This document shows, piece by piece, positions 1 to 55,305 of a stretch of 64,000 bases of DNA (positions are counted from its first letter, which is position 1; every line of letters begins with the position of its first letter). This DNA is from a plasmid, in NCBI RefSeq assembly GCF_054482525.1, contig NZ_JBTHVG010000003.1; one strand, 5' to 3'. The position numbers and the translations under genes are program-made. The notes below the pieces were generated by a model, which had not been told where the DNA came from, made no database searches, and saw nothing but the letters and a program-made list of their open reading frames with translations.

Positions 1-664
1 GGTAGGGTCCTTCAACGTTGAGTTTTTTCAGCGAGAACTTGCTAAAAAACCCGATCAGGACATTTTTCCTGTTGCTGGTACGATTTATCCCGTTGAAGAA
101 AAGAGCATCATTAAAGAACTGGAAGAACGCGCACAAAAATATGACTGGGAAGGTGCAAAAAAAAGGGCCGTTGCGGACACCTGGAAAAATCAATGGATGG
201 TCGATCTCCCTCCTGCCCAGGAACACAAAGAATTTTTAATTGACCCTACAGTGAGGGTCACTCAGGACGTAAAAGATAAGCAGGGCCGTGTAATAGCTTC
301 CGCCGGTGAGTTGATTAATCCACTTTCGAGATTTCCTCAAAACCTGACGATGATAATTTTCGATCCACTCAATCCGGGCCAGCTGGTATGGGCTGAGCAG
401 CAGTATCGACAACGTCTGGGTAGTGGAAAAGTAATGCCAATGTTTACCCGTATCCAAAAAGATAATGGATGGGATCACCTAAATGATTTACGTGAAAAAT
501 TTAACGGTAAGGTGTTTAAAGTAAACGAACAGATTATCTCACGCTTTCAGATTAAAAATACACCTGCGCTTATAACTACTGACCAAGATAAATTCCGGAT
601 CACCCTGTTTAGCGAGGCAGAAGTCCGTGGAATCGGAGCCCCAAATCTTTCAGAGGAAAAATAA
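1..664 (+). CDS. traW: Conjugative transfer protein TraW/TrhW-like, 5' partial (gene begins before window)
   Basis: Frame 2 is open from nt 2 to the TAA at 662-664 (ORF-track fragment 197..664); lies immediately upstream of traU as in F-type T4SS operons. Family assignment is by position and size, not by a motif I can name. Confidence 0.55.
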   Translation, partial: VGSFNVEFFQRELAKKPDQDIFPVAGTIYPVEEKSIIKELEERAQKYDWEGAKKRAVADTWKNQWMVDLPPAQEHKEFLIDPTVRVTQDVKDKQGRVIASAGELINPLSRFPQNLTMIIFDPLNPGQLVWAEQQYRQRLGSGKVMPMFTRIQKDNGWDHLNDLREKFNGKVFKVNEQIISRFQIKNTPALITTDQDKFRITLFSEAEVRGIGAPNLSEEK

Positions 665-665
665 T

Positions 666-800
666 ATGAAACTCGGATTTATTATAGGCGCTCTCTTTGC
701 AACATGGCTGACGCTAAATTATCCGGACCAGATGAGAAGTTATTTTACCAAAGCCGTCGACTATATCGAAAGTGTTGCAACATTTATTACATCCAAGTGA
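666..800 (+). CDS. Small hydrophobic ORF (44 aa) between traW and traU
   Basis: ATG at 666 overlaps the traW stop (TAATATG); translation MKLGFIIGALFATWLTLNYPDQ... has a predicted TM segment; its TGA at 798-800 sits 2 nt before the traU ATG. Below the ORF-track size cutoff. Confidence 0.25.
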   Translation: MKLGFIIGALFATWLTLNYPDQMRSYFTKAVDYIESVATFITSK

Positions 801-802
801 GC

Positions 803-1864
803 ATGATGGTGAAAAAATTCAAAAAGTTACTTTTAGAGTTCATTGTAGCAGTTATGCTTTCGCTTTCTATACCTGGTATGGCTATGGCAGCAGATGCTGG
901 AGTCCCTGGGGCTATGTGTCAGTCAGCTGGAGTGTGGCAGGGCTTGATTAAGAATATCTGTTGGAGCTGCATTTTTCCCATGAGGATAATGGGCATAGGG
1001 GCTGCTCCAGAAGGCGCTGCACCTTCACGTCCGGGTTGCTACTGCACAGATCAGAACGGCGTACCGGAAATAGGTTGGCAATTGAGCTTCTTTCAGCCGG
1101 TGAAGATTGTAGAAGTTGTAAAGAGCCCCTGGTGCAGCCCCTTTCTTGAAGGCACGATGCTTCAAAAATCGCAGTTTGATATTGGTAAAAGCAACACTAA
1201 TCAGCCAATGACAGCAACTGAAGCCGGATTTTACGATGTTCATCTTTGGGAGTTCCCAATCATGACAATGCTCAAATTACTGATTATTGGCGAGTGCACT
1301 GCTGAACCCTATATAGATGCCAGCCTGACCTATATAAGCGAAGTGGACCCTATGTGGGAAAGTGATCTGCTTACACTCGTCCTGAATCCCGAGGCAGTAG
1401 TTTTTGCAAACCCAATTGCCTCAATGGTGTGCGCTGCTGACTGTGTAGCAGTAACAGCAGGAAAGGATAATCTCGCTGCATACTTTTGTGCCGGATGCGA
1501 TGGCAACCTTTACCCATTAACCGGCCACATTTACGCAAATGATGACGCTGTAAGGACGAGTTCACTGATTACCCAGCGTCTTCTGACAAAACTACATCGC
1601 CAAGGCATGCTGATGCGAACGATGGGAGCAGACGCAATGTGTGAGAAAACGTGGGAATACTTTACACCACGTTCCCAGTATCGGCTTTCAATGCTTTTCC
1701 CTACTCCTGAGGCGAAGGGACCGGATTGCTGTCATCGTCTTGGTGATTCGGTACACGACTGGTCAACCCTTAAAGGTGGGCGCAAAAAAATAGGCAACGA
1801 TAATTATGTCTATATGTTGTGGCGTTACAATGACTGTTGTGTTCGCTACGTTCCAGGCGTTTGA
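803..1864 (+). CDS. traU: Conjugal transfer protein TraU/TrhU
   Basis: Signal peptide then conserved TraU blocks ICWSCIFP and LNPEAVVFANPIA...KLHRQGMLM; Cys-rich. Start moved to the internal ATG at 803 (ORF-track ORF 704..1864). Confidence 0.9.
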   Translation: MMVKKFKKLLLEFIVAVMLSLSIPGMAMAADAGVPGAMCQSAGVWQGLIKNICWSCIFPMRIMGIGAAPEGAAPSRPGCYCTDQNGVPEIGWQLSFFQPVKIVEVVKSPWCSPFLEGTMLQKSQFDIGKSNTNQPMTATEAGFYDVHLWEFPIMTMLKLLIIGECTAEPYIDASLTYISEVDPMWESDLLTLVLNPEAVVFANPIASMVCAADCVAVTAGKDNLAAYFCAGCDGNLYPLTGHIYANDDAVRTSSLITQRLLTKLHRQGMLMRTMGADAMCEKTWEYFTPRSQYRLSMLFPTPEAKGPDCCHRLGDSVHDWSTLKGGRKKIGNDNYVYMLWRYNDCCVRYVPGV

Positions 1865-1882
1865 TTTCTAAGGAGAAAATAA

Positions 1883-4800
1883 GTGAAACTTAGAAAAACA
1901 ATCACCTCAGCGATTATTGCATCAATGGTTGCCAATACTATGAGTTGGGCTTTTTATGTCACACTCATAAACATGGTAATGACACCACGTGTTTACGCTG
2001 CTGACGCTATATTTGACCAGCTCGAAAATAATTTTAACCTTGCAAATCCTAACGCAAATCGCAATGCAACCACCAGTGCTCAGGACATTGTGGAGAAATA
2101 CAAGAACGCGGATTCAGGCGAGAATGTCAGTGGGAAGATCACCGAGAAATACGTGGGTAAAGCCGAATCCGCTAATCTTAATCTCGGGAAGTATGGGGCA
2201 GGGAACTCTAATGAAAGTGTCATGAAAAATGCCGCATCCGATGGAAAGTCTATTGGTAGCGCCGTACAACTGCCGAGTATGTCTGGAGGGACAATCAATT
2301 CAAACTACACCAAGGAAGGGGCAAAGCTGCTCTCTCGTGATGCTAATGGCAACATTGGTATAAGCAGTAATCCCAATACTACTCCTGGAACCAAAACAAA
2401 TACGGGAGAGATTTTCAGCTCAGAGCAAAAGCACAGCGATATAAAGTTCAACGCCGCAGATCGTTATGGGGATGAGGATGGCTTTGTTAACGATATAAAG
2501 AATCGGAAAAGCCAGTTATTTGATGCTCAAAGTTATGATGGCGTTGCCTACCGCACCCTCGTAAATGCTAACAAGGACAACCCGGCATCGTCTGTAAAGC
2601 CTAACGATCCCATGTTTACTGCGGGGAGAAATGAGATAACCAATGCTGTTGCTGGTACTGGAAACTGGCTTCAGAACTGTAATGTTGAGACCTCCAAAAA
2701 AACAGTAACCACACACTATCCTGATTACAAAGAGTTCTACTGTAACTCGCCTAAGCAAGATAACTTCAGCAGCTGCACGATAACTCGTGACTTCTCTGTT
2801 CCTGTATACATTTCAGGCGGAAACGGAGACATGTCGATGTGCGGCGATAATTGTGTGCGTATATGGTTTGGTCGCCGTGATGACAACTACTGGAGTGACG
2901 GGGTATTTGATAACGAACTGACATTAAAATTCCATCCGGATGCAAAATTGGCCTCAGCAAAGATTGTTAACGCGGAGTGGGATGACCACATGCGGGTAAC
3001 ACTTGATGGCACGCAGATTTTTGCTCACATAGATGGTGCATATCGAGAAAGTGACTATCCGGCTCCAAAGGGATCTTGGGAGTTAAAAAAATCGTGGAAA
3101 CTCGACAAAGTATACGATGTAACTGAAAAGGTCAGAAAATCAGTTTATGAAGAACCTGATCGTGAAGTGACAATGGCATCCAGAGTCTGGGTTGGTGGGG
3201 GAGGTGAAGGGTACTTTGAGGTTGAGCTGACGTTTGAAAATATGAAGCTCGAAGATAAGCACGTCCAGGAACCAGCTGGTTGTTACGATGCTGTACAAAC
3301 ACCAAATACATTCTGCCGTTTCGATCGGTTTAAAGATATGGATGTTGGCACGAAGCGGCTTCCGGAAAGCGTGCTTTCTATGGCAAAGCCGCTGTATGAA
3401 GGCGATAAAGGCTTTCTTACCTGGAAGACTAACCTTGAAGGCTATTTTTGTGATCCATTGGCTAAAGACAAGATTTGCTCTTATGACGCCAGTGGGAAAA
3501 TTATGAAAGACGCTAATGGAAAGGACCTCTGTTACAACTACGAAGAAATTAAGAGTATGCCTGATGCATGTAGTTCTTATAAAAATGATGCAGCATGTGT
3601 ACTCGATAAACAAACATGTGCAGAGGGTTGGTTCGATGAGGGCACTAACAGCTGCTACATGTATGAACAGAAATACACCTGTGACAGAGGTAAGGATGTA
3701 GTTCGTGAGGTTGAATCTTCTACAAATGCCTGTGTTGGCATGATCCCATGTTCTGGAGGAACATGCGAAACTGGGCCAAAGGAAGAGAACAACGATTTTG
3801 GAAAAGTTGCGGCTTATTCAAACATGGTTCAGTACATGCAGGGCGAAGCCAAATGCGAAGACCCTAACGATGCCAATTCCTGTTCTGTCTTTGAAGGAAA
3901 ACCTGAATGGTGTGGTCGTTCAGTAGGCTTTGTAAATGGCCTGGCAAAGACGGACTGCTGCGAAGCACCGCAGGGAACCGCAGGAGCACTTGAAGGTATC
4001 ATGCTTGCCGGATCTATGATCAGAAACACTAACTGGACCAGAGTTAATGCTCAGCTAATAAAATGGACCGGCGGTGATACAGGTACATGGGCTTCTATGT
4101 CCAATGCGGTCGGTGAGTGGACTGCATCAGCTGGTAAAACAGTAGGGCAAATGTGGAACAATGTCACGAGCTCCTTAACGAGCGTATATGAAAACGTCGC
4201 TGGTAATCTAAGCAGGGCAGTTGGGTCTTCCGCAACTTCTGGAGGGGCAGGAGGTGCTGGCCAGTTGGCACAGGAAACAATGTCCAGCTTCGGTATAGGT
4301 CAGCTTAAGCAGATGGCAATGAAGAAAGCCTACGAATTGCTACCAGATACAGTTCGAGACTTTGTCTTTAAGAACGTTGCTACTACCGGAGGAGAGGTTG
4401 TCTTCTCGGCTGCGGTTCAAAACTTTATGCTTGCATTAAACGTGATCGGTTGGATTTATACAGCCTATCAGGTCACTAAAATGCTTTTAGAAATGTTGGT
4501 AGCATGCGACCAGAAAGAGATGGAAGCTTCTATTCATAAGAATCAAAAATCCTGTTTTACATTAGATACGGAACGATGCGTCAAATATCTGAATGTTGGT
4601 TTCACAAAGAAATGCGTTAAAAAAGCAACAGACATGTGCTGTTATAATTCCATGTTGTCACGCGTTATTATGCAACAAGCTTATCCGCAATTAGGAATAG
4701 ACCCTGTCGCCTCTAATTGCGTGGGGCTATCAATAAAGCAAATACAGCAACTGGATTTCGATAAAATTGATCTGACGGAGTGGATTAATGATGCAGTTCA

Positions 4801-5071
4801 GGTAGGAGAAGTTCCTGATCAATATTCAAAATTCTCCGAAGAATCAATTGTGGAAAACTTACCATTCCAGAATGAGAACTATCAACTTCCATCAGAACGT
4901 ACCAAGGAAGCAATGGGCGGTGAAGAAAATATGATAAAGGCCAGACAAGAAAATGCTCAGGCTATAAAAGAGGAAAATGTAGATTGTAGCTATTTACCTC
5001 GACCGGCCATATGTGAGGTAGGTTCAACTACGCTGGATCCGGTTACGGGCAAGCAGTTGCCGAAATATTGA
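1883..5071 (+). CDS. traN: Mating-pair stabilisation protein TraN/TrhN-like (1062 aa, Cys-rich)
   Basis: GTG start with AAGGAG RBS; N-terminal signal peptide; many conserved Cys pairs, C-terminal CC motif (KKATDMCCYNSMLSRV); directly follows traU; size matches the long TrhN-type proteins of IncHI/SXT-like elements. Confidence 0.8.
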   Translation: MKLRKTITSAIIASMVANTMSWAFYVTLINMVMTPRVYAADAIFDQLENNFNLANPNANRNATTSAQDIVEKYKNADSGENVSGKITEKYVGKAESANLNLGKYGAGNSNESVMKNAASDGKSIGSAVQLPSMSGGTINSNYTKEGAKLLSRDANGNIGISSNPNTTPGTKTNTGEIFSSEQKHSDIKFNAADRYGDEDGFVNDIKNRKSQLFDAQSYDGVAYRTLVNANKDNPASSVKPNDPMFTAGRNEITNAVAGTGNWLQNCNVETSKKTVTTHYPDYKEFYCNSPKQDNFSSCTITRDFSVPVYISGGNGDMSMCGDNCVRIWFGRRDDNYWSDGVFDNELTLKFHPDAKLASAKIVNAEWDDHMRVTLDGTQIFAHIDGAYRESDYPAPKGSWELKKSWKLDKVYDVTEKVRKSVYEEPDREVTMASRVWVGGGGEGYFEVELTFENMKLEDKHVQEPAGCYDAVQTPNTFCRFDRFKDMDVGTKRLPESVLSMAKPLYEGDKGFLTWKTNLEGYFCDPLAKDKICSYDASGKIMKDANGKDLCYNYEEIKSMPDACSSYKNDAACVLDKQTCAEGWFDEGTNSCYMYEQKYTCDRGKDVVREVESSTNACVGMIPCSGGTCETGPKEENNDFGKVAAYSNMVQYMQGEAKCEDPNDANSCSVFEGKPEWCGRSVGFVNGLAKTDCCEAPQGTAGALEGIMLAGSMIRNTNWTRVNAQLIKWTGGDTGTWASMSNAVGEWTASAGKTVGQMWNNVTSSLTSVYENVAGNLSRAVGSSATSGGAGGAGQLAQETMSSFGIGQLKQMAMKKAYELLPDTVRDFVFKNVATTGGEVVFSAAVQNFMLALNVIGWIYTAYQVTKMLLEMLVACDQKEMEASIHKNQKSCFTLDTERCVKYLNVGFTKKCVKKATDMCCYNSMLSRVIMQQAYPQLGIDPVASNCVGLSIKQIQQLDFDKIDLTEWINDAVQVGEVPDQYSKFSEESIVENLPFQNENYQLPSERTKEAMGGEENMIKARQENAQAIKEENVDCSYLPRPAICEVGSTTLDPVTGKQLPKY

Positions 5072-5075
5072 AGAA

Positions 5076-5097
5076 GGGGCCGTTAGGCCCCTTTTTT
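5076..5097. terminator. Bidirectional rho-independent terminator between convergent traN and lipoprotein gene
   Basis: GGGGCC-GTTA-GGCCCC stem-loop followed by T6, with an A-rich run on the other side. Confidence 0.7.
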
Positions 5098-5099
5098 AA

Positions 5100-5972
5100 T
5101 TACTTGGCTTTCAATGTTTTTTCTGGGAAGCCTTTTTTACCGTATTCACCGGTAAAGAGGTAATAATCTTTTCCGTTGATGGAGGCTGCAACACCCCCTG
5201 GAGTTGTTGTATTTGGGCTATCAGAACGGAAAATGATACCCGAAAAATCAGCGCTTGTTTCGTTTCCTTTAAATGGGATGAACACATAACGAATTACAGC
5301 GTAATCACCAGCGGGAAGGTTTAGCTGAGGAATTTCGGTTCCTGTTGCGGGGCGAATCGCCTGAAAGCTGTACATTGAATCTGTAGGGAAAACATCAGCA
5401 TCAGGCTTAGAGGGCAGATCACAGGTACTCCATTTATTGACGACTGCCATATCAATTTTACATGTGGCCAGAGCTGCTTTCTGTTTTTCAGGGTTGTATC
5501 CAAATGAGGCCTGAGTTGCTTTTGTATGCTCAAAAACATACTTAGCTCCTTCACGTACCAAACTTTCATCATTGTAAGGCAATTTTTTTGGATTGGGGAC
5601 GAACACTAGGTATTGATTGACCTGGATGTATTCGGCGTCAGAAGAACTGTACAAAGAGCCGAGGCTCATGATCCCAAAACCTTTTAGACCGCCTGTTACG
5701 TAGCCCATCGAACTATTGATGAGATACTTAGAAAGAAAGTTGTCGGCATCCCCTCCAGGAGTAACCTCTTGCTCCTTAAAATTAACGTCGAAACCAGCAA
5801 ACGAATAGGCATTCTTGGCGACAGAATCATTTGCTTTAGCATGCCAGTACTGGCCGTGACTGTACGCATTCAGAGCGGTGCCTGGCGTAGTGCCGGTGTC
5901 ACCGGCACAACCCGATAGGGAAAAACCAATGACGACAGAAGAGACCAGAGATACTAAACGTAAAAGTTTCAT
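5100..5972 (-). CDS. Lipoprotein, unknown function
   Basis: Signal peptide with lipobox LSGC (MKLLRLVSLVSSVVIGFSLSGCAG); convergent with traN. Confidence 0.6.
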   Translation of the reverse strand: MKLLRLVSLVSSVVIGFSLSGCAGDTGTTPGTALNAYSHGQYWHAKANDSVAKNAYSFAGFDVNFKEQEVTPGGDADNFLSKYLINSSMGYVTGGLKGFGIMSLGSLYSSSDAEYIQVNQYLVFVPNPKKLPYNDESLVREGAKYVFEHTKATQASFGYNPEKQKAALATCKIDMAVVNKWSTCDLPSKPDADVFPTDSMYSFQAIRPATGTEIPQLNLPAGDYAVIRYVFIPFKGNETSADFSGIIFRSDSPNTTTPGGVAASINGKDYYLFTGEYGKKGFPEKTLKAK

Positions 5973-6151
5973 TTAAAGCCCTTTTTGTAATGTCTTTTGG
6001 AGATGGAACCATTATTCCATAGTCACGCGTTTCACAAACAACCTGATTGCATAAAAAAGGAAAAAAAGTGATTTCCAGTAGAACCAGCAGTACACAAGAA
6101 AAGCGCTTTTATAAAAATGTATAATTATTAAAACGAAGTAATGAGGTTGAA

Positions 6152-7936
6152 ATGGGTAAGCCAACAGAAGAGCAAAGACCTGTTATCGAGAATGCTAGCG
6201 CAAACAATATGGTGATAGCAGCGCCTGGATCAGGCAAATCATTCACCATGATAGAAGCGGTTATATCGATTCTCAAAAAGTATCCATATGCAAGAATCGG
6301 GATGGTGACCTTTACTCGCGCTGCAACAAACGCACTTGCAGCAAAGTTACAAAAGCGATTGAGCAAGAAGGATCTTGACCGGGTGCTGGTGGATACTTTT
6401 CACGGACTCGTTAAGAAGCAACTGGACATGATTCGCTGGCCGGGAAAGATGTTGATAGGGCCAGCACAGAGATCTGTCATTCACCGGGCTTTGAAAGAAT
6501 CCGGTGTAACGATGAAGTTTGCTGAAGCTGAATTCGTTATTGATGCTATCGGCAGAGAAATGGATACGGATGTGATTTCAGTTCGGCATAACAGACAACA
6601 GATCCATTTATTTAATACCTATCAGGCGTTATGCCAGAAAGACCATGTGGCGGACCTCAATGCTCTTTCAAAATTTGTTGTCGGTCAAATGCATTCGGGA
6701 AAAATGCGCACGTTAGATTTGACACATTTGATAGTAGACGAAGTTCAGGATACTGACTCTATACAATTCTCATGGATAGCATTGCATACAAGAGCTGGAG
6801 TCTATACGAGTATAGTTGGAGACGATGATCAGGCCATCTACTCCTTCAGATCCTCAGGAGGAGTCAAAATATTTCAACAGTTTGAAAAACACTTCAGACC
6901 TAACATATTTTACTTAAACACATGCTTTAGGTGTGAACCTGAAATTTTAGAGGTGGCCGGAGCACTGATAGGAAAGAATGTTTACCGTTATGCCAAAGAG
7001 TTACGCTCGGCAAAAAAGGGAGGAGGAAAGGTCACTTTTCGTTCATATGTAGATATGGAGGAACAGATACAGGGTATTTTAAGCCTTATAAATCAGGATC
7101 CACATGGATGGGCAATTCTAAGCCGCAATAATGCTCACTTGGATGAGCTAGAAAGTTTGATCGAACAGCCAGTAATTCGTTACGGAGGTAAATCATTCTG
7201 GGATGAAAAAGAAACAAGCGATGTGTTAAGCCTTATGGCCTTTTTCCGACAATCAAATGATCCTCGCTTAATGAAGAGAGTATTGGCATTGTTTGGAGAA
7301 CAGGAATCAGTTTTGGATGATGTGGCATTGAGTATGAGAGGAAGAAAAGTTACTTTTGGCGACCTTGCCATCCCGGAGGACAGTTCTCTCGAAACAAAAA
7401 CATTACATTCAAACTTCGTGCGCTTTACCCAGGAAAGTACTGATAAAGTTGAGATAGCAAAACGTTTCGCCAACCTTACGAAATGGATGGAATCGTCGTC
7501 AATCAAGATGAGGAGTAATAAAGGTACAGCAACCTTAACAAAAATTGCTTTAGACACTTGTAAACAGTGGGCAGAAAAGACTGGTTGGATGAATATGATC
7601 AATCGTGCTGCTGCAATGTCATTAGGCCCTAGGAAGAAGGACGAGGAATACAGCCCAGAGAAAGTAGTCCTATCAACCTTGCATGGTTCAAAGGGTCTTG
7701 AGTGGAATAAAGTAATAATAATGAGTTGTAATGCGGATCAGATACCAAGTAAAAGATCAGTTGGGGAGGAGGCAATAGAAGAAGAAAGACGTTTGCTTTA
7801 TGTTGGATTTACGCGTGCAGAAAAGCAACTTTTTGTAATGTGGTATGGTGACCCTTCTTTCTTTTTAAGAGAATGCAGTGAAGAAAAGATAAAAGAAGCA
7901 GCTAATATTCGAATTTCTCCAGTTTATACAGAATAA
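6152..7936 (+). CDS. UvrD/Rep/PcrA-like SF1 DNA helicase (594 aa), solitary
   Basis: Walker A AAPGSGKS, motif II LIVDEVQDTDS, motif III GDDDQAIYSFR, motif V VLSTLHGSKGLEWNKVII, motif VI YVGFTRAEKQL; GAGG RBS 5 nt upstream of the ATG. Confidence 0.85.
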   Translation: MGKPTEEQRPVIENASANNMVIAAPGSGKSFTMIEAVISILKKYPYARIGMVTFTRAATNALAAKLQKRLSKKDLDRVLVDTFHGLVKKQLDMIRWPGKMLIGPAQRSVIHRALKESGVTMKFAEAEFVIDAIGREMDTDVISVRHNRQQIHLFNTYQALCQKDHVADLNALSKFVVGQMHSGKMRTLDLTHLIVDEVQDTDSIQFSWIALHTRAGVYTSIVGDDDQAIYSFRSSGGVKIFQQFEKHFRPNIFYLNTCFRCEPEILEVAGALIGKNVYRYAKELRSAKKGGGKVTFRSYVDMEEQIQGILSLINQDPHGWAILSRNNAHLDELESLIEQPVIRYGGKSFWDEKETSDVLSLMAFFRQSNDPRLMKRVLALFGEQESVLDDVALSMRGRKVTFGDLAIPEDSSLETKTLHSNFVRFTQESTDKVEIAKRFANLTKWMESSSIKMRSNKGTATLTKIALDTCKQWAEKTGWMNMINRAAAMSLGPRKKDEEYSPEKVVLSTLHGSKGLEWNKVIIMSCNADQIPSKRSVGEEAIEEERRLLYVGFTRAEKQLFVMWYGDPSFFLRECSEEKIKEAANIRISPVYTE

Positions 7937-8330
7937 TTCGATATGGGCATTTACTTATGCTTAAAGCTATAGTATAAAAACAATGAGCTTAAATATCAGC
8001 TCCCAAATTTGAGTAACTTTGCTTAAAGTTACTTTCGCGTTAAGCGTTGATTTAGCCGTGAAAAGCGGCCAGCTTAAACAAGCTGTAAGACACCACCGGC
8101 AAAATGTCACCTTTGTCGCTGGTGCACTTCCCATGCCTGAAAAAGGCAATCTGAATTTACCAAACCGTAACTAATTTAGCTCCTCCTGGAGCTATTTTTG
8201 TTGCGTACTTCTAATGCCAGATAGTATAAATCAGGCGGTTCATAGCTTACGGGAGATGAATGACAGGCTTTGCCTTCGTGTTGAAACAAAAAATTGTTTC
8301 TTCCTTCTTACTATATATAGGTGACCCCAA

Positions 8331-9203
8331 ATGTCTAAAAATAAAGCTCGCAGTAAAGCCCTTCATCAAACCTTTAGTGAAATTATTCCAGAGATGGATA
8401 AGGCGCTAAACAAACAGCTCTTAGAAGTTCTGATGAAATATACAGAACGTGATAATGAACTGATTGTTATTTTGAATGAGGACGGCCCAAATATCATTGA
8501 ACTTAAGTCTCTTAAGCCTGTGTCGTTGTTGGCCGAAAAGCTTTCTGCTTATTCAAGCTATTATCATGTGGATGTTGTGGAGCTCGTGGTCAAGAAAATT
8601 GATTTCGAAGGAGCTTATAAGCTTCTTAAAGCTTCCCCAGATGTACCACTTTTTAAAAGCTTAACTGAACTGGATAAATATCTTGTTGAGGAGTTTGAAA
8701 AATACGGATTAAATTCATTTCTTGACGTGGATAATCTGGATTACTCACTTGAAAAAGCCAGTGAACTCAAAAATGAGCAGTTAATAAATTGGGTTTCGGA
8801 CATCATTTGCAAACGTGAAAAATTAACTTTACGTAAGCGTTTTGATGTCGCAGTAAAGGCCCACTACGAAAATGTAGAAAAAATGTATGATACCATTCGT
8901 CCGTTAATGAAAAAACTGGGTTTCCCAGAAGATCTCATGACGCACACCTTTAGTGAGTTAAGCGTTTTTGAAACTAAAGGATGGGACCATGCAATAAAAT
9001 CGAAAATTGAGACTCTCGCTAAGCGTGAAACTCAATATTTAGATGATGCGGCTAAAGCAGAGAATCGACGTCTTGTAACAGAGAAGTTGGAGAACTCTTT
9101 AGCGATTGCACCAACTAAACCAACAAGAAATTGGTTACATATTGCCGGAATTGCCTGTTTGGTAGTCTGCACGTTCATGTATGTAACTAATAAATTTATT
9201 TAA
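8331..9203 (+). CDS. Hypothetical protein with C-terminal membrane anchor
   Basis: 290-aa ORF, AT-rich codon usage, C-terminal hydrophobic helix WLHIAGIACLVVCTFMYV; no recognised motif. Confidence 0.5.
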   Translation: MSKNKARSKALHQTFSEIIPEMDKALNKQLLEVLMKYTERDNELIVILNEDGPNIIELKSLKPVSLLAEKLSAYSSYYHVDVVELVVKKIDFEGAYKLLKASPDVPLFKSLTELDKYLVEEFEKYGLNSFLDVDNLDYSLEKASELKNEQLINWVSDIICKREKLTLRKRFDVAVKAHYENVEKMYDTIRPLMKKLGFPEDLMTHTFSELSVFETKGWDHAIKSKIETLAKRETQYLDDAAKAENRRLVTEKLENSLAIAPTKPTRNWLHIAGIACLVVCTFMYVTNKFI

Positions 9204-49553: not shown

Positions 49554-50795
49554 GTGAATCTACAATCCGGACAAAACATACCGCTTCAGCAATCTGCGAT
49601 CAGGCTGAATCTTCAGTACCCTGCCAAATCCGGCTTTAAAGGCGAACCCGATACCTGCCTCTTCCTGCTTAATGCTCAGGGAAAGGTAACCGGCGATTCT
49701 GACTTTATCTTTTATAATAATCTGTCTTCTCCTGAAGGGGCAGTAAAGCTCGTTACCGGTTCTCAGCAGTCCAGCATTGAGATAGCACTGGATCGTGTTC
49801 CGGCGAACGTCAGTAAGATTGCGATCACCGTTGTCATTGATGGTGAAGATACTATCAGTGGGCTCAGTTTATTGAGCATTCAGGCTCCTGGTATCGCTGA
49901 TTTTCAGGCTGAGACTCAGGGCCGCAGTGAGAAAGCAATCATCCTGGGTGAAGTATATCGGCACAATGGCGCCTGGAAGCTTCGTGCGCTCGGGCAGGGT
50001 TTCAACGGTGGTCTTGAGCCTCTGGCCATTAGCTTTGGCGTTGATGTCGCACAGCCAGCTCCGCAGCCAGCAAAGCCCGCTCGTATCAGTCTGGAAAAGA
50101 AACTTGAAACCAGATCTCCGCGCCTCGTAAGCCTCGCTAAAAAAGCCTCGGTCAGTCTCACTAAAAATAAACTGGACACCCTTGAGGCAGCGGTTGCATT
50201 TGTACTTGACGCATCCGGCTCAATGAGTGGCCAGTTCAGTAAGGGCAACGTTCAGTCTGTGCTGGACCGCATCGCCGTTCTTGCCGCCCAGTTCGACGAC
50301 GACGGTGAAATGGATGTCTGGGGATTTGGAGAGAAGCACAAGAAGTATCCAAACGTCACACTGGACAACCTGGACACATATATTCAGTCCATTCGCGGGT
50401 CTGGAAAGCGTTCAGCCTGGGAGAACCTGCCGGGACTTGGTGGGACAAACAATGAGCCCCCTGTGATGGAAGAAATTGTCGACTACTTTAAGGACTCGAA
50501 AATCCCGGTATATGTTGTATTTATTACCGATGGCGGGATCAGCAAGACCCGGGCGATTAAAGATGCAATCCGGCGTTCTGCCAACTACCCCATCTTCTGG
50601 AAGTTTGTCGGCCTGGGTGGTTCAAGCTACGGTATCCTCAAAAATCTGGATGACTTTACTGACCGCCGGGTTGATAACACCCACTTCTTTGCCATGGATG
50701 ATTTCGGTTCGATCAGCGATGAAAAGTTATATGATAATTTACTGGAAGAATTCAGACCGTGGATCGATGAAACAAAAAGGTTAGGCATCCTGTAA
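49554..50795 (+). CDS. terF: TerF (TerD domain fused to vWA domain)
   Basis: N-terminal TerD-like domain plus C-terminal vWA ([17 protein letters not shown]); GTG start with a GGAGAG RBS; 413 aa. Confidence 0.8.
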
Positions 50796-50885
50796 TACGC
50801 ACAGTTTTCGCATGGTTAAAGGAGCTCTACAGCAGCTTAATACTGTAGAGCCTTTGTTCACTGGAAATCGTACAGGGAGGAGCAT

Positions 50886-51017
50886 ATGGACCGCATCAAG
50901 TACCTGAAATGGATAGCTGAAGAATCACCAACTGATGATGAAATCGACAACTACGATAGTATCATTAGTCGGGGCGCAGAAAGGGCCGAGAAGGTTCAGT
51001 TGTCTTTAAGACGTTAA
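50886..51017 (+). CDS. Small ORF (43 aa)
   Basis: Strong GGGAGGAG RBS 5 nt upstream of the ATG; not in the ORF track because of its size. Confidence 0.3.
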   Translation: MDRIKYLKWIAEESPTDDEIDNYDSIISRGAERAEKVQLSLRR

Positions 51018-51357
51018 TATACGGGAGTTTAAATGTTCGCAGAAATCAAAGATAATTATTCGTTAGGTGGATAAAGAAAGGTTGCCATTACCAGCTTTCG
51101 ACGAGTCGAAAATAAAAACCTTATTTATAGTGACAGGGAGTATGAGCTGACGCTTGCCAATGGAACAATAATTAAAAATGTACTTAGAAAAGAAGAGTGG
51201 GAACTGTTAGAAAGCAATTCAATTAAGGTTATATTATAACGAAAATATATTTACAGTTTTGGATAGGTTTCAAACGAGTCCGGACATTTGTACCTGAAGT
51301 ATCTGACATTACAGTTAAGTGACGATTATGTCAGCACGTCTGTTGCTGGCAGCTTAG

Positions 51358-51639
51358 CTATCGGTCTAAAAGCTGATCCATTAATAATTCTTCGTAAAGC
51401 CCAGAGGTATCGGGCTTTATTACAATATCCGTTATTTCGAAGCGTTCAAGTACAAATTGCAGATATTCCGGAGTAACGTAGTAGGGATCAGGTTCAGCCA
51501 GATTAGTATAGAGTGGGTCTTCTGCTGCATTAATGTCATAATCAATGCACATATGAAACCACTGCAAAGGTGGATCCCAGCCTAACATCACCTGAACAAT
51601 TCCCTGATTGCTTTTCACCTCATACCAGTGCTGGCTCAT
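51358..51639 (-). CDS. Hypothetical protein
   Basis: 93-aa ORF in a run of three small minus-strand ORFs. Confidence 0.3.
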   Translation of the reverse strand: MSQHWYEVKSNQGIVQVMLGWDPPLQWFHMCIDYDINAAEDPLYTNLAEPDPYYVTPEYLQFVLERFEITDIVIKPDTSGLYEELLMDQLLDR

Positions 51640-51688
51640 ACTTAGTCCTTAAGAAAATTTGTCATCGGAAAATAACACGAAGCCTGCA

Positions 51689-51880
51689 TCATCGAGGCGC
51701 ATAACCTTCTTCCCTTAACGCCTGTTGTAATTTATCAACTGCGCTTTTCATTACCCAGGCTTCTTCGTCACTCACAGCACAACCACGTAGATCGCTCCAG
51801 CTCAGACGTTTAACAAATTGAGCAAGGGCCATAGTTTCGTTCTCATCAAGCCGCAAACTCAGTGTCTCAATACCTTCCAC
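51689..51880 (-). CDS. Small hypothetical protein
   Basis: 63-aa ORF. Confidence 0.3.
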   Translation of the reverse strand: MEGIETLSLRLDENETMALAQFVKRLSWSDLRGCAVSDEEAWVMKSAVDKLQQALREEGYAPR

Positions 51881-51971
51881 TATCTAACCTCCCTTATAAT
51901 GAAAAATGGCGCTTTACTTCTGACCAGATGCCGAAGCCTTGAATGCAGCCGGAACTGTCGTTGTTTCTACT

Positions 51972-52343
51972 TTACAGAAATGGAATTAAAAAGTGGTGAT
52001 GCTGGGCACGTTTCTTTTCCAGCCGGGGTTTAAGCCAGAGCTGAAACTCATTCAACTTCTCAGCAGCCAAAACCGCTTCAACGGGGAAAACTTTATATTT
52101 ACCCTGTTGCTGAGGTTCACCCAGCCATCGCCTGATGGCTCCGTCAGTCCATAAACGAGTCTCTTTTAGCCTAGTTACAGTGACCCATTTTCTGGACCAT
52201 TCATCAAATTGTCGCTGGCGATCCCGATAACGTTGTTCTTCCTGCTGCCGAAGCCACTCGCGATCAACAGCAAATTTTCGGTATCCAACAAAGAGCCCTT
52301 GTACTTTGGCCATGTCATATTCCGGTTGCTTAGAGTTACTCAT
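51972..52343 (-). CDS. Hypothetical protein
   Basis: 123-aa ORF with a basic, R/Q/E-rich segment. Confidence 0.35.
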   Translation of the reverse strand: MSNSKQPEYDMAKVQGLFVGYRKFAVDREWLRQQEEQRYRDRQRQFDEWSRKWVTVTRLKETRLWTDGAIRRWLGEPQQQGKYKVFPVEAVLAAEKLNEFQLWLKPRLEKKRAQHHHFLIPFL

Positions 52344-52646
52344 TCAACCAAAACCTAAACGTCGATACAAACTCTGTTTCATAACCAGGGTTTTATCCTT
52401 ACCGCGACAGTAAGTAACAGGGGCTGCATAAACCGGTCATTTAGTCCGTTATGCAAAAATTATTGAGGATCCGGGCTGTTAAACTGTTCTTCCTCTTTCG
52501 CTTCCGGTGAAAAGGGGAGGTGTCACCCTGCGAGCCCGTGTAGTGAAAGGGATTCGTCGTAATACAGGCCAAAGGCTAACATGACCGCAAAGGACGCCCG
52601 GGCGACCGGATACCTGCCGGGTTGTGCGATGTAAAATCCGGAAGCA

Positions 52647-53078
52647 GTGATAACACAAACAGGCCCCTACAGCGTAAGGATTGTGATGGACGATAAAGAG
52701 CAGTTTACGAATCTTGTGGCAAAGCATGCCTCCGGACTCACCGAAGAGCAGCTGGCCGGGTACGATGCCTGTTCCCTGGATGGTGAATGCGTCACGCCTT
52801 CATACGAGGTTTTCCGGGGGTATCGTACCCGCCACACACTGGATGAATTTCTGGAGATGGCCATATCGCTGAATGCCATCCACCCGGATGAATATTTAAC
52901 GGATATGCTGCTGAAGCCTCATGAGGTGATCGGCGCTCTGGCCGATGAAGGCGACCAGCTGAACAACGCCACCCCGGTTTATTTCTTTCCGGATACCGGC
53001 GTCTATGCAGCGGCCGTTAGTGAAACCCGGGTGCTCGATGCCTGGCTTTGCTGGCCATGCTACCCGGCGAACTGGTAA
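52647..53078 (+). CDS. Hypothetical protein
   Basis: 143-aa ORF; no recognised motif. Confidence 0.4.
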   Translation: MITQTGPYSVRIVMDDKEQFTNLVAKHASGLTEEQLAGYDACSLDGECVTPSYEVFRGYRTRHTLDEFLEMAISLNAIHPDEYLTDMLLKPHEVIGALADEGDQLNNATPVYFFPDTGVYAAAVSETRVLDAWLCWPCYPANW

Positions 53079-53678: not shown

Positions 53679-53975
53679 ATGATCAATAATGATTACCCGT
53701 TAAACACGCTCAACCAGCTGCGTCCCTTGCTCATTGGTTTTCGCAAGGCGAATGGCCTGACGCAAAAAGACCTGTCCGAAAGGTTAGGCGTCACTCAACA
53801 GACATACTCACGTCTGGAAGCCAACCCTGCCAGTGCGAGCATTGAACGGCTATTCAAGGTGTTTTCCATCCTGGGCGTAAAAATCAGCTTCTCCTCGGCA
53901 ACCACCTCTTCAGAGAGGAAGCAGACGGAAGAAATGCTTAAATCAAACTCACCTGCACGACAGGAGGATTGGTAA
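53679..53975 (+). CDS. hipB: HipB-like XRE-family antitoxin
   Basis: HTH segment GLTQKDLSERLGVTQQTYSRLE; stop 4 nt before the hipA start. Confidence 0.75.
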   Translation: MINNDYPLNTLNQLRPLLIGFRKANGLTQKDLSERLGVTQQTYSRLEANPASASIERLFKVFSILGVKISFSSATTSSERKQTEEMLKSNSPARQEDW

Positions 53976-53979
53976 CGAT

Positions 53980-55305
53980 ATGAGCCGGAAACAGCAACGT
54001 CTGGTAATTTGGATGAACGGCATCAAAGTCGGGTACTGGGAAAAAAGCAAAGGGGTAGACAGCTTAGAATACCTTCCTGAATGGGTTGCTGACGAACAGG
54101 GAAGGCCGCTGTCATTGTCCCTTCCTTTTACTCCCGGGAACCAGGTCTGGCGTGGAAATGTGGTACGTGACTATTTTGATAATTTACTGCCGGACAGCGA
54201 AGGCATACGCAGACGTCTGGCAATGCGTTACAAGGCCGATAGCCTGGAGCCTTTTGATCTGCTGACGGAGCTGGGAAAAGACTGCGTGGGCGCGATACAG
54301 CTGCTTCATGACGGAGATGAACCCACTGATTTATATTCCGTGAAGTATCACCCGCTTACTGAATCAGAAATTGCGGCAACTTTGCGTAATACCACGGAGA
54401 CATTGCTACCGGGCAGGCCAGAAGATAACGACGACTTACGTTTATCTATTGCCGGTGCTCAGGAGAAAACAGCCCTACTGTGGCATGAAGAACGGTGGTG
54501 TATGCCGGAGGGTAATACACCAACGACGCATATATTCAAGCTACCGCTCGGACTTGTGGGGAACATGAAAGCCGACATGAGCTCGTCGGTTGAAAATGAA
54601 TGGCTCTGCTCGGTACTTCTCGGCCAGTACGGGCTCCCCGTGGCAAGAACGCAGATTGCTCACTTTGAAGATCAGAAAGCGCTGGTGGTAGAACGTTTTG
54701 ACCGAAAATGGTCAGGAGACGGACAATGGATCATTCGTTTACCCCAGGAGGATATGTGTCAGGCCCTGGGCGTTTCGCCATTACGAAAATATCAGGCGGA
54801 CGGCGGGCCAGGTATATCGGAAATTATGGAGGTTCTGAGTAATTCAGACCGTGCTGAGCGTGACAAAGCGCAGTTTTTTATGACGCAGATAATTTTCTGG
54901 ATGATGGCCGCAACAGATGGCCACGCTAAAAATTTCAGTATTTCTATTGGGCCACAGGGACGTTATCACCTTACACCAAACTATGATGTGTTGTCGGCAT
55001 GGCCGGTGATCGGTCATGGGAACAATCAGATATCCTGGCAGAAGTGCAAACTGGCGATGGCCGTACGTGGCAGTAGCAACTATTACCAGATATATCGAAT
55101 ACAACGACGCCACTGGATCAGGCATGGTGAGATAACCGGCCTGAGTAAACAGCAGACAGAGGCGATGATAGAGGAAATCATCGCCAGAACCCCGGGTGTC
55201 ATTGAACGTGTTAGCGGGCTTCTTCCGGACCAGTTCCCCCAGCAGCTTGCGGAAAGTATTTTTGATGGAATGAGGCAGCAATGCAGGCGCCTGGCTGAGA
55301 AATGA
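53980..55305 (+). CDS. hipA: HipA-family Ser/Thr kinase toxin
   Basis: 441 aa with HipA-like blocks SIAGAQEKTALLWHEERWCMP and GHAKNFSI. Confidence 0.85.
   Translation: MSRKQQRLVIWMNGIKVGYWEKSKGVDSLEYLPEWVADEQGRPLSLSLPFTPGNQVWRGNVVRDYFDNLLPDSEGIRRRLAMRYKADSLEPFDLLTELGKDCVGAIQLLHDGDEPTDLYSVKYHPLTESEIAATLRNTTETLLPGRPEDNDDLRLSIAGAQEKTALLWHEERWCMPEGNTPTTHIFKLPLGLVGNMKADMSSSVENEWLCSVLLGQYGLPVARTQIAHFEDQKALVVERFDRKWSGDGQWIIRLPQEDMCQALGVSPLRKYQADGGPGISEIMEVLSNSDRAERDKAQFFMTQIIFWMMAATDGHAKNFSISIGPQGRYHLTPNYDVLSAWPVIGHGNNQISWQKCKLAMAVRGSSNYYQIYRIQRRHWIRHGEITGLSKQQTEAMIEEIIARTPGVIERVSGLLPDQFPQQLAESIFDGMRQQCRRLAEK

What the first reader, a model, noticed from the sequence alone, without database searches (positions are those of the whole stretch)
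50886..52343. Cluster of small ORFs downstream of terF, one with a very strong RBS
A 43-aa ORF with a GGGAGGAG RBS is followed by three small minus-strand ORFs (93, 63 and 123 aa) of unknown function at the edge of the ter island; they could be a small toxin-antitoxin or regulatory set.
Basis: seen in the sequence. Interest (0 to 1): 0.25.

Follow-up and report, generated by a model that had tools for sequence, protein, structure and literature searches.

The report
Gene debris plus three plasmid genes
The small ORFs after terF are real, but the 43-aa ORF is a leftover fusion of two partly deleted genes, and the three minus-strand ORFs are conserved, unrelated plasmid genes of unknown function rather than a toxin-antitoxin set.

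Summary
All four ORFs exist at the stated coordinates. They lie in a stretch 100% identical to hundreds of ~240-kb E. coli/Salmonella IncHI2-type plasmids, where RefSeq already annotates them as hypothetical.

The 43-aa ORF is a deletion scar. Codons 1-16 and the GGGAGGAG RBS come from a conserved 151-aa gene that follows terF in R478-type IncHI2 plasmids. Codons 17-43 are the in-frame 3' end of a 92-aa Cys4 gene that is intact in Citrobacter plasmids. Next to it lies an unnoticed 68-codon pseudogene with an in-frame TAA at 51072-51074.

The three minus-strand ORFs are real genes under purifying selection:
- B (93 aa, acidic) belongs to a family with no Pfam entry.
- C (63 aa) is DUF7706, with a strong RBS of its own.
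- D is 113 aa, not 123. It is basic, and its predicted fold weakly resembles MerR/excisionase winged-helix DNA binders.

Outside IncHI2, each of the three occurs alone on other plasmids, with different neighbours. More than 430 R478-type plasmids keep C and D but only 23 codons of B. No toxin-antitoxin or defence family matches. The toxin-antitoxin idea is therefore not supported; a regulatory role for D remains possible. This is ordinary plasmid accessory content and of low interest.

The parts
50824..50859 (+). terF terminator-like hairpin (GCTCTACAG-N10-CTGTAGAGC, then CTTTGTTC). This is the true end of the ter module.
   Evidence: Read from the sequence. E. coli chromosomal ter islands share homology only as far as window ~50860.
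50875..50882 (+). Shine-Dalgarno GGGAGGAG, inherited from the 151-aa gene that follows terF in relatives.
   Evidence: The same RBS and start codon are present in L004 (GGGAGGCG) and L016 (GGGAGGAG) in front of the 151-aa gene.
50886..50933 (+). 5' part of the 43-codon ORF: codons 1-16 of the 151-aa 'A' family gene (MDRIKYLKWIAEESPT).
   Evidence: 95% DNA identity to R478-type plasmids up to ~50930, then the homology is lost. The full gene is 150-151 aa in 43 protein clusters and 489 plasmids. The L016 allele reads ...CCAACT ACG.
50934..51017 (+). 3' part of the 43-codon ORF: the last 27 codons and stop of a 92-aa Cys4 (CPQC...CTSC) gene, joined in frame.
   Evidence: Homology to C. freundii plasmids L015/L016 begins at 50934. 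In the aligned stretch the two sequences differ at only 2 positions inside this tail. There the frame belongs to a 92-aa ORF ending ...HGEDDEIDNYDSIISRGAERAEKVQLSLKR.
51033..51239 (+). Pseudogene of a 68-aa ORF (WP_020833827 family). In-frame TAA at codon 14 (51072-51074), where the C. freundii copy has TAC.
   Evidence: Otherwise 66 of 67 residues are identical.
51358..51639 (-). ORF B, 93 aa, pI 4.05. A real gene belonging to a plasmid-borne family with no Pfam entry (motif MSQH..GWD.PLQ.F..I...PLYSNL). SD is TAAGGA.
   Evidence: Purifying selection and CDS-limited homology. 41 representative homologues by HMMER, alignment A4, no Pfam match. AF2 pLDDT 85.6. RefSeq WP_000077926.
51587..51639 (-). 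The first ~17 codons of B. This is the only part of B retained in R478-type IncHI2 plasmids, so 51586|51587 is the right breakpoint of their deletion.
   Evidence: Alignment A1. The L004 remnant reads MSQHWYEVKSNQGIVQVIVGRRY*.
51689..51880 (-). ORF C, 63 aa, pI 4.6, DUF7706 family. GTG start preceded by the strong SD AAGGGAGGT.
   Evidence: Pfam PF24806, E 1.1e-25, 89.9 bits against a 27-bit cutoff. SD read. Homologues on 2,745 plasmids, including IncN and IncL pOXA-48. The pOXA-48 homologue is an abundant 7.8-kDa protein (bioRxiv 10.64898/2026.07.12.738056).
51972..52313 (-). ORF D, 113 aa (not 123), pI 10.3. Predicted beta-hairpin, long helix, then a beta-alpha-alpha-beta-beta-alpha core that weakly resembles MerR/excisionase winged helix.

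Best explanation
The region is the decayed junction between the ter operon and a block of IncHI2 accessory genes.

Shown:
- The ancestral order, still visible in Citrobacter plasmids once an IS66 insertion is set aside, was terF > A (151 aa) > RelB/DinJ-like (171 aa) > Cys4 ORF (92 aa) > ORF68, converging on B < C < D.
- In the window's lineage a deletion joined codon 16 of A to codon 66 of the Cys4 gene. This left an in-frame 43-codon chimera that keeps A's strong RBS.
- ORF68 then acquired a nonsense codon.
- The sister R478-type lineage suffered a different deletion that kept A and removed everything up to codon 17 of B.
- B, C and D are intact, are under purifying selection, and each belongs to its own widely distributed family carried on plasmids or ICE-like elements.

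Inferred:
- B, C and D are three independent accessory cargo genes that happen to be co-oriented and are possibly co-transcribed. They are not an obligate set.
- D is most likely a small DNA-binding protein, acting as a regulator or DNA-processing accessory of MOBH-type elements.
- C is a highly expressed small acidic helical protein.
- B is a small acidic alpha/beta protein that most plausibly binds and inhibits a host or competitor protein during plasmid establishment (anti-defence or immunity-like).
- The 43-aa product is probably functionless.
For: Identity and annotation.

Breakpoints: alignment to R478-type plasmids and to C. freundii plasmids. Junction sequence CCAACT|GATGATG. IS66 8-bp target duplication and the left end of the R478-type deletion just upstream of the RelB-like RBS.

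Full-length A family. Cys4 ORF, ORF68 and the RelB domain. Nonsense codon. B stump in R478-type plasmids.

Selection.

Independent distribution:
- B on IncX4, on a plasmid typed only as rep_cluster_1367/MOBC and on an untyped 30-kb plasmid, on a contig with an IncFII_repA-type rep gene, and on ~3.6-kb Rep-Mob units.
- C on IncN and IncL plasmids.
- D next to rep genes on Klebsiella plasmids, and next to a TraI_2 relaxase and an integrase in Brenneria.

Charge and RBS. Structures. Expression of a DUF7706 homologue.
Against: - No experimental data exist for these exact genes.
- No sigma-70-like promoter was found upstream of D by the simple scan, so co-transcription is unproven.
- The 43-aa chimera keeps a strong RBS and is fixed in more than 700 plasmids, so translation of a peptide cannot be excluded.
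- The ancestral order is inferred from five IS-disrupted Citrobacter plasmids. No plasmid with the whole array intact was found.
Confidence: 0.75

Rival explanations
1. B, C and D, or a pair of them, form a small type II toxin-antitoxin or addiction module.
For: The genes are small, co-oriented and plasmid-borne. One is basic with a possible DNA-binding fold (D) and two are acidic. The neighbourhood contains a HipBA-like pair.
Against: There are no TA family matches. The gaps are 91 and 49 bp, with no overlap. Each gene occurs alone elsewhere with unrelated neighbours. More than 430 R478-type plasmids keep C and D with B truncated.
Confidence: 0.06
2. The 43-aa ORF encodes a functional micro-protein, for example a regulator of ter or of the neighbouring genes, which would explain why its strong RBS is retained.
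For: The frame is open, has a strong SD, is annotated in RefSeq, and is fixed in about 713 plasmids.
Against: Both halves are fragments of longer genes: 16 codons of a 151-aa gene and 27 codons of a 92-aa gene. It has no homologues as a unit, and the carriers are more than 99% identical, so there is no test of selection. An in-frame junction is expected one time in three by chance.
Confidence: 0.05
3. D is a recombination-directionality or relaxosome accessory factor of MOBH-type conjugative elements rather than a transcription regulator, and C and B are unrelated passengers.
For: The D core resembles excisionase/AlpA/TorI and pSK1 Par DNA-binding domains. D homologues sit beside a TraI_2 relaxase and an integrase in Brenneria, on MOBH-typed plasmids and on an IncC-replicon Vibrio plasmid, and beside integrases in Vibrio.
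Confidence: 0.15

Closest known systems
Pfam DUF7706 (PF24806)
   Same: ORF C matches over almost its whole length, well above the gathering score. Like other members it is a ~7-kDa acidic helical protein on conjugative enterobacterial plasmids (IncN, IncL pOXA-48).
   Different: Nothing distinguishes it from the family. The family itself has no known function; only the abundance of the pOXA-48 member has been reported.
Type II toxin-antitoxin modules (e.g. RelBE, HipBA)
   Same: Small adjacent plasmid genes, one of which may bind DNA. The reconstructed ancestral array contained a gene with a RelB N-terminal domain.
   Different: No conserved gene pair, no toxin or antitoxin family match, and no overlapping or tightly coupled ORFs. 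One member (B) is lost in a large sister lineage. The RelB-like gene is absent from the window.
MerR/excisionase-type winged-helix DNA-binding domains (Xis, AlpA, TorI, pSK1 Par, GlnR/TnrA)
   Same: The predicted beta-alpha-alpha-beta-beta-alpha core of D (residues 43-85) superposes on these domains. D is basic and lies on mobile elements.
Small acidic plasmid establishment/anti-defence proteins (ArdA/ArdB-KlcA, PsiB) and polymorphic-toxin immunity proteins
   Different: No sequence relationship to any of these families, no proven leading-region position in IncHI2, and no functional data.
Deletion-generated chimeric ORFs / pseudogene remnants
   Same: The 43-codon ORF consists of the 5' end of one gene and the 3' end of another, joined at a sharp homology breakpoint without microhomology.
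   Different: None. This is the ordinary outcome of an illegitimate deletion. The join happens to be in frame, which preserves an open frame behind a strong RBS.

Membership tests
DUF7706 (PF24806) - ORF C | Score above the Pfam gathering threshold over most of the model | tested here: met
   89.9 bits against a 27-bit cutoff, E 1.1e-25, model positions 7-63 of 63. RefSeq names it a DUF7706 family protein.
Type II toxin-antitoxin system | Match of at least one partner to a known toxin or antitoxin family | tested here: not met
   No TA family in Pfam, NCBIfam or PADLOC for A43, B, C or D.
Type II toxin-antitoxin system | Conserved adjacency of the two partners across unrelated replicons | tested here: not met
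   Outside IncHI2, B, C and D each occur alone with different neighbours.
Type II toxin-antitoxin system | Loss of one partner not tolerated; toxicity neutralised by the partner | tested here: inconclusive
   Natural deletion of B in more than 430 R478-type plasmids is tolerated. This excludes B as an essential antitoxin. Toxicity itself cannot be tested with these tools.
MerR/excisionase (HTH_17-like) winged helix - ORF D | Sequence-profile match to the family | tested here: not met
   No Pfam match for D even at E 10. Profile A3 against PDB sequences gives 0 hits.
MerR/excisionase (HTH_17-like) winged helix - ORF D | beta-alpha-alpha-beta-beta-alpha fold superposable on solved members | tested here: inconclusive
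MerR/excisionase (HTH_17-like) winged helix - ORF D | Sequence-specific DNA binding | not testable with these tools
   Needs EMSA or ChIP.
Anti-restriction / anti-defence proteins (ArdA, ArdB/KlcA, PsiB) - ORF B | Sequence or clear structural homology to a known family | tested here: not met
Anti-restriction / anti-defence proteins - ORF B | Location in the leading region or next to establishment genes | tested here: inconclusive
   B is adjacent to an antirestriction gene (PF03230 in L021; annotated 'antirestriction protein' in L013) and to parA on two plasmids, near ccgAII on one, and downstream of a relaxase on a mini-plasmid. In the window it lies beside ter, and its position relative to oriT is not established.
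151-aa 'A' family downstream of terF - the 43-aa ORF | Full-length (~150 aa) alignment to family members | tested here: not met
   Only residues 1-16 align. All intact members are 149-152 aa.

The most novel reading that the evidence does not exclude
ORF B would represent an undescribed family of small acidic plasmid proteins (motif MSQH..GWD.PLQ...PLYSNL) that act as anti-defence or immunity-like protein inhibitors, carried as swappable cargo on replicons from 3.6-kb Rep-Mob units to 240-kb IncHI2 plasmids. D would be the founding member of an unrecognised winged-helix DNA-binding family associated with MOBH-type plasmids and ICEs.
Probability: 0.15. Interest if true: 0.45.

Novelty: new member of a known kind. 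Interest (0 to 1): 0.15.

Why it matters
It matters little for biology at large.

It corrects annotation carried by more than 700 clinically relevant IncHI2 plasmids, including mcr-1 carriers. WP_000374059 (the 43-aa ORF) is a chimeric remnant, an unannotated ORF68 pseudogene lies beside it, and the third minus-strand gene is 113 aa.

It gives a clean sequence marker: two alternative deletions that separate the E. coli/Salmonella IncHI2 lineage from the R478/Enterobacter lineage.

It also flags two widespread plasmid protein families without a Pfam entry (B and D), and one DUF (C), as candidates for functional screens of plasmid establishment or anti-defence genes.

Tried and rejected
- Pfam, NCBIfam, PADLOC and PHROGs scans of all ORFs. 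Only DUF7706 matched, for C. A PADLOC JetB hit to D (E 6.6e-5, 39 residues) was judged spurious, because it is a short helical stretch with no support from the structure searches.
- PDB sequence and profile searches found nothing. The alphaRep hits to C are designed-repeat artefacts.
- An Rfam scan and a repeat scan of 50600-52900 found nothing, so there is no evidence for a type I TA/sRNA or for iterons.
- The promoter/terminator scan was uninformative for the D-C-B unit.
- The literature holds a single relevant hit for DUF7706. The IncHI2/R478/terF search returned comparative-genomics and resistance papers; none was opened, because no title or abstract pointed to these ORFs.
- Several metagenomic contexts of B homologues were too short to use.
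- A plasmid carrying the complete ancestral array was sought but not found intact. Only five IS-disrupted Citrobacter plasmids carry it.
- Loci fetched in parallel calls did not reach the Python sandbox, so alignments were made with DNA alignment instead.

Full report
**1. The observation**

The four ORFs are present exactly as described:
- 50886-51017 on the plus strand, 43 aa. GGGAGGAG lies at 50875-50882, three bases before the ATG.
- 51358-51639 on the minus strand, 93 aa (B).
- 51689-51880 on the minus strand, 63 aa (C).
- 51972-52343 on the minus strand, 123 aa (D).

They follow terF (49554-50795), which carries the TerD and vWA-TerF-like Pfam domains.

The 2-kb stretch is 100% identical to hundreds of ~150-390-kb E. 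coli and Salmonella plasmids, for example pSA186_MCR1. It is ~95% identical in part to plasmids typed IncHI2A. RefSeq already annotates all four ORFs: three as hypothetical, and C as 'DUF7706 family protein'.

**2. The 43-aa ORF is a deletion scar**

*Left half.* I aligned the window with an R478-type IncHI2 plasmid (L004). Homology of ~95% runs through the end of terF, the RBS and the first 15-16 codons, and then stops abruptly at ~50930. In L004 the same start codon opens a 151-aa gene. This gene belongs to a genuine family:
- 489 plasmids carry at least 80% of it. Homologues of 73-75% identity sit on unrelated 39-85-kb plasmids, and one of 50% identity is in Pantoea.
- 43 protein clusters were found, and the intact members are 149-152 aa.
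- It also follows terF in one E. coli O22:H8 chromosomal island.

*Right half.* The remaining 27 codons and the AT-rich DNA after them (from 50934 on) are 96.5% identical to Citrobacter freundii plasmids. There the same reading frame is the C-terminus of a 92-aa Cys4 ORF ending ...CTSCDWSVHGEDDEIDNYDSIISRGAERAEKVQLSLKR.

*Junction.* It reads CCAACT|GATGATG at 50933|50934, with no microhomology.

The ORF is therefore a chimera: 16 codons of gene A plus 27 codons of the Cys4 gene. It is open only because the join fell in frame, and it has a strong RBS only because A had one.

**3. A second piece of debris**

The interval 51033-51239 is a 68-codon frame identical at 66 of 67 residues to the annotated C. 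freundii protein WP_020833827. Codon 14 is TAA in the window (51072-51074) and TAC in C. freundii.

**4. The ancestral array and two alternative deletions**

In the Citrobacter plasmids an IS66 element, flanked by an 8-bp duplication CATTTTTG, sits ~100 bp after gene A. Setting the IS66 aside gives this order:

terF > A (151 aa) > RelB/DinJ-like (171 aa; Pfam RelB, E 5.7e-9, N-terminal 47 residues only) > Cys4 (92 aa) > ORF68, converging on B.

Two lineages then diverged:
- The R478-type lineage is collinear up to a point just upstream of the RelB-like gene's RBS. It then jumps to codon 17 of B (window 51587), leaving a 23-codon stump.
- The window lineage instead lost the segment from A codon 17 to Cys4 codon 65.

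The window type is seen in ~713 plasmids, mostly Escherichia and Salmonella. The R478 type is seen in more than 430, mostly Enterobacter. The near-ancestral form is seen in five.

E. coli chromosomal ter islands share only the ~65 bp after terF, which end at a terminator-like hairpin at 50824-50859. G+C falls from ~51% in the ter genes to 35-40% at 50800-51600. The ter module therefore ends at ~50860, and the small ORFs are neighbouring plasmid cargo.

**5. B, C and D are real genes**

*B.* I compared B with a 93-aa homologue on an E. marmotae IncX4 plasmid. Synonymous sites are saturated (49.5 differences over 55.3 sites), while only 12% of non-synonymous sites differ. DNA homology begins and ends exactly at the CDS.

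*D.* Between the two IncHI2 lineages D has 9 synonymous and 2 non-synonymous changes (omega 0.06). C has 3 synonymous and 4 non-synonymous (omega 0.35).

*Start of D.* The ten codons upstream of D's internal ATG (52313) carry CTG in place of ATG plus two indels in L004. The gene is therefore 113 aa, as RefSeq has it.

*C.* It matches Pfam DUF7706 at E 1.1e-25.

B has TAAGGA. D has only a weak GGA.

**6. What the three genes look like**

*B.*
- pI 4.05, with 17 acidic and 4 basic residues.
- An exhaustive HMMER search found 41 representative relatives. They share MSQH..GWD.PLQ.F..I...PLYSNL and have no Pfam family.
- The AF2 model (pLDDT 85.6) is a three-stranded antiparallel sheet followed by two helices.
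- Homologues lie after integrase, antirestriction and parA genes on two plasmids and near ccgAII on another.
- One homologue (52% identity) sits directly downstream of the relaxase on a ~3.6-kb Rep-MobC-relaxase unit. A sister unit ~90% identical holds an unrelated 98-aa ORF in the same slot. B thus behaves as exchangeable cargo.

*C.*
- pI 4.6.
- Homologues occur on 2,745 plasmids, including IncN (beside mobF) and IncL pOXA-48.
- A 2026 preprint reports the pOXA-48 DUF7706 protein (7.8 kDa) among the most abundant plasmid-encoded proteins in MALDI-TOF spectra (10.64898/2026.07.12.738056).

*D.*
- pI 10.3.
- Homologues of 42-67% identity occur in Klebsiella, Vibrio, Xenorhabdus and Brenneria. 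The block W(I/V)TV.RLK..RLWTD.AI..WLG.P...GKYKVF is nearly invariant.
- The AF2 model (pLDDT 85.8) has a beta-hairpin, a 25-residue helix, a beta-alpha-alpha-beta-beta-alpha core (residues 43-85) and a C-terminal helix.
- Foldseek finds nothing significant.
- D homologues lie beside rep genes on Klebsiella plasmids. In a Brenneria element the order is KfrA, an unnamed 330-aa gene, D, a 75-aa ORF, TraI_2 relaxase, integrase.

**7. Toxin-antitoxin or regulatory set?**

Several results argue against a TA module:
- None of the ORFs matches a TA or defence family.
- The genes are 91 and 49 bp apart.
- Outside IncHI2, no two of them are ever neighbours in the contexts examined. The genes next to their homologues are mutually unrelated.
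- The R478-type lineage is a natural knockout of B that retains C and D. The window lineage is a natural knockout of A, the RelB-like gene and the Cys4 gene.
- Rfam and repeat scans give no hint of an antisense RNA or iterons.

TA is thus unsupported. A regulatory, DNA-binding role for D alone remains plausible.

**8. Most likely mechanism**

- D binds DNA as a small regulator or DNA-processing accessory of MOBH-type mobile elements (inferred, ~50%).
- C is an abundant small helical protein of unknown partner (family membership shown, function unknown).
- B is an acidic protein inhibitor that helps plasmid establishment or competition (inferred from charge, exclusively plasmid-borne cargo behaviour, neighbours and weak fold hits, ~30%).
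- The 43-aa chimera and ORF68 are inert remnants (~90%).

**9. Novelty and score**

This is ordinary plasmid accessory content that is already annotated as hypothetical. The useful outputs are corrected gene models, a reconstructed deletion history that distinguishes two IncHI2 lineages, and two widespread families lacking a Pfam entry that are worth including in functional screens. Interest is 0.15.

Noticed in passing
window 51033-51239 (+): Unannotated pseudogene: a 68-codon frame matching WP_020833827 at 66 of 67 residues, with an in-frame TAA at codon 14 (51072-51074).
   Followed up: yes
L016 (NZ_CP055583) 1336-5537; L015 (NZ_CP141646): Citrobacter plasmids keep a near-ancestral array after terF: A (frameshifted), an IS66 insertion with 8-bp TSD CATTTTTG, a 171-aa RelB/DinJ-like gene, a 92-aa Cys4 ORF that is not annotated in the records, ORF68, then B truncated by an IS. 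The function of the RelB-like/Cys4/ORF68 trio is unexplored; it could itself be a TA-like or defence module.
   Followed up: partly
L018 (JGI 3300073647 contig) 1-7310: Two ~3.6-kb Rep-MobC-relaxase units, ~90% identical, are joined head to tail. The slot after the relaxase holds a B homologue in one unit and an unrelated 98-aa ORF in the other, so it is a variable cargo slot on a mini-plasmid.
   Followed up: partly
window 51881-51897 (-): ORF C (DUF7706) has a very strong SD (AAGGGAGGT) before a GTG start. This is consistent with the reported high abundance of the pOXA-48 homologue.
   Followed up: partly
window 52647-53078 (+): ORF E is an acidic (pI 4.3) 130-143-aa hypothetical protein (WP_000341066), divergent from D, with no family match. 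It is conserved in R478-type plasmids but at a different distance from D.
   Followed up: no
window 53679-55305 (+): An HTH (98 aa) plus HipA-family kinase (441 aa) pair. This is a recognisable type II TA module 1.3 kb from the finding, followed by HNH endonuclease and helicase genes.
   Followed up: no
L007 (E. coli O22:H8 chromosome NZ_CP023165) 2759-5300: A chromosomal ter island carries the R478-type arrangement (terF, the 151-aa gene, the B stump) and is then cut by an IS66-family element. This suggests exchange between IncHI2 plasmids and chromosomal ter islands.
   Followed up: partly
L024 (Brenneria GCA_033840155) 3322-8487: A D homologue is embedded in an ICE-like block: KfrA_N, a 330-aa gene, D, a 75-aa ORF, TraI_2 relaxase, tyrosine integrase. 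This hints at a link between the D family and MOBH-type transfer modules.
   Followed up: no
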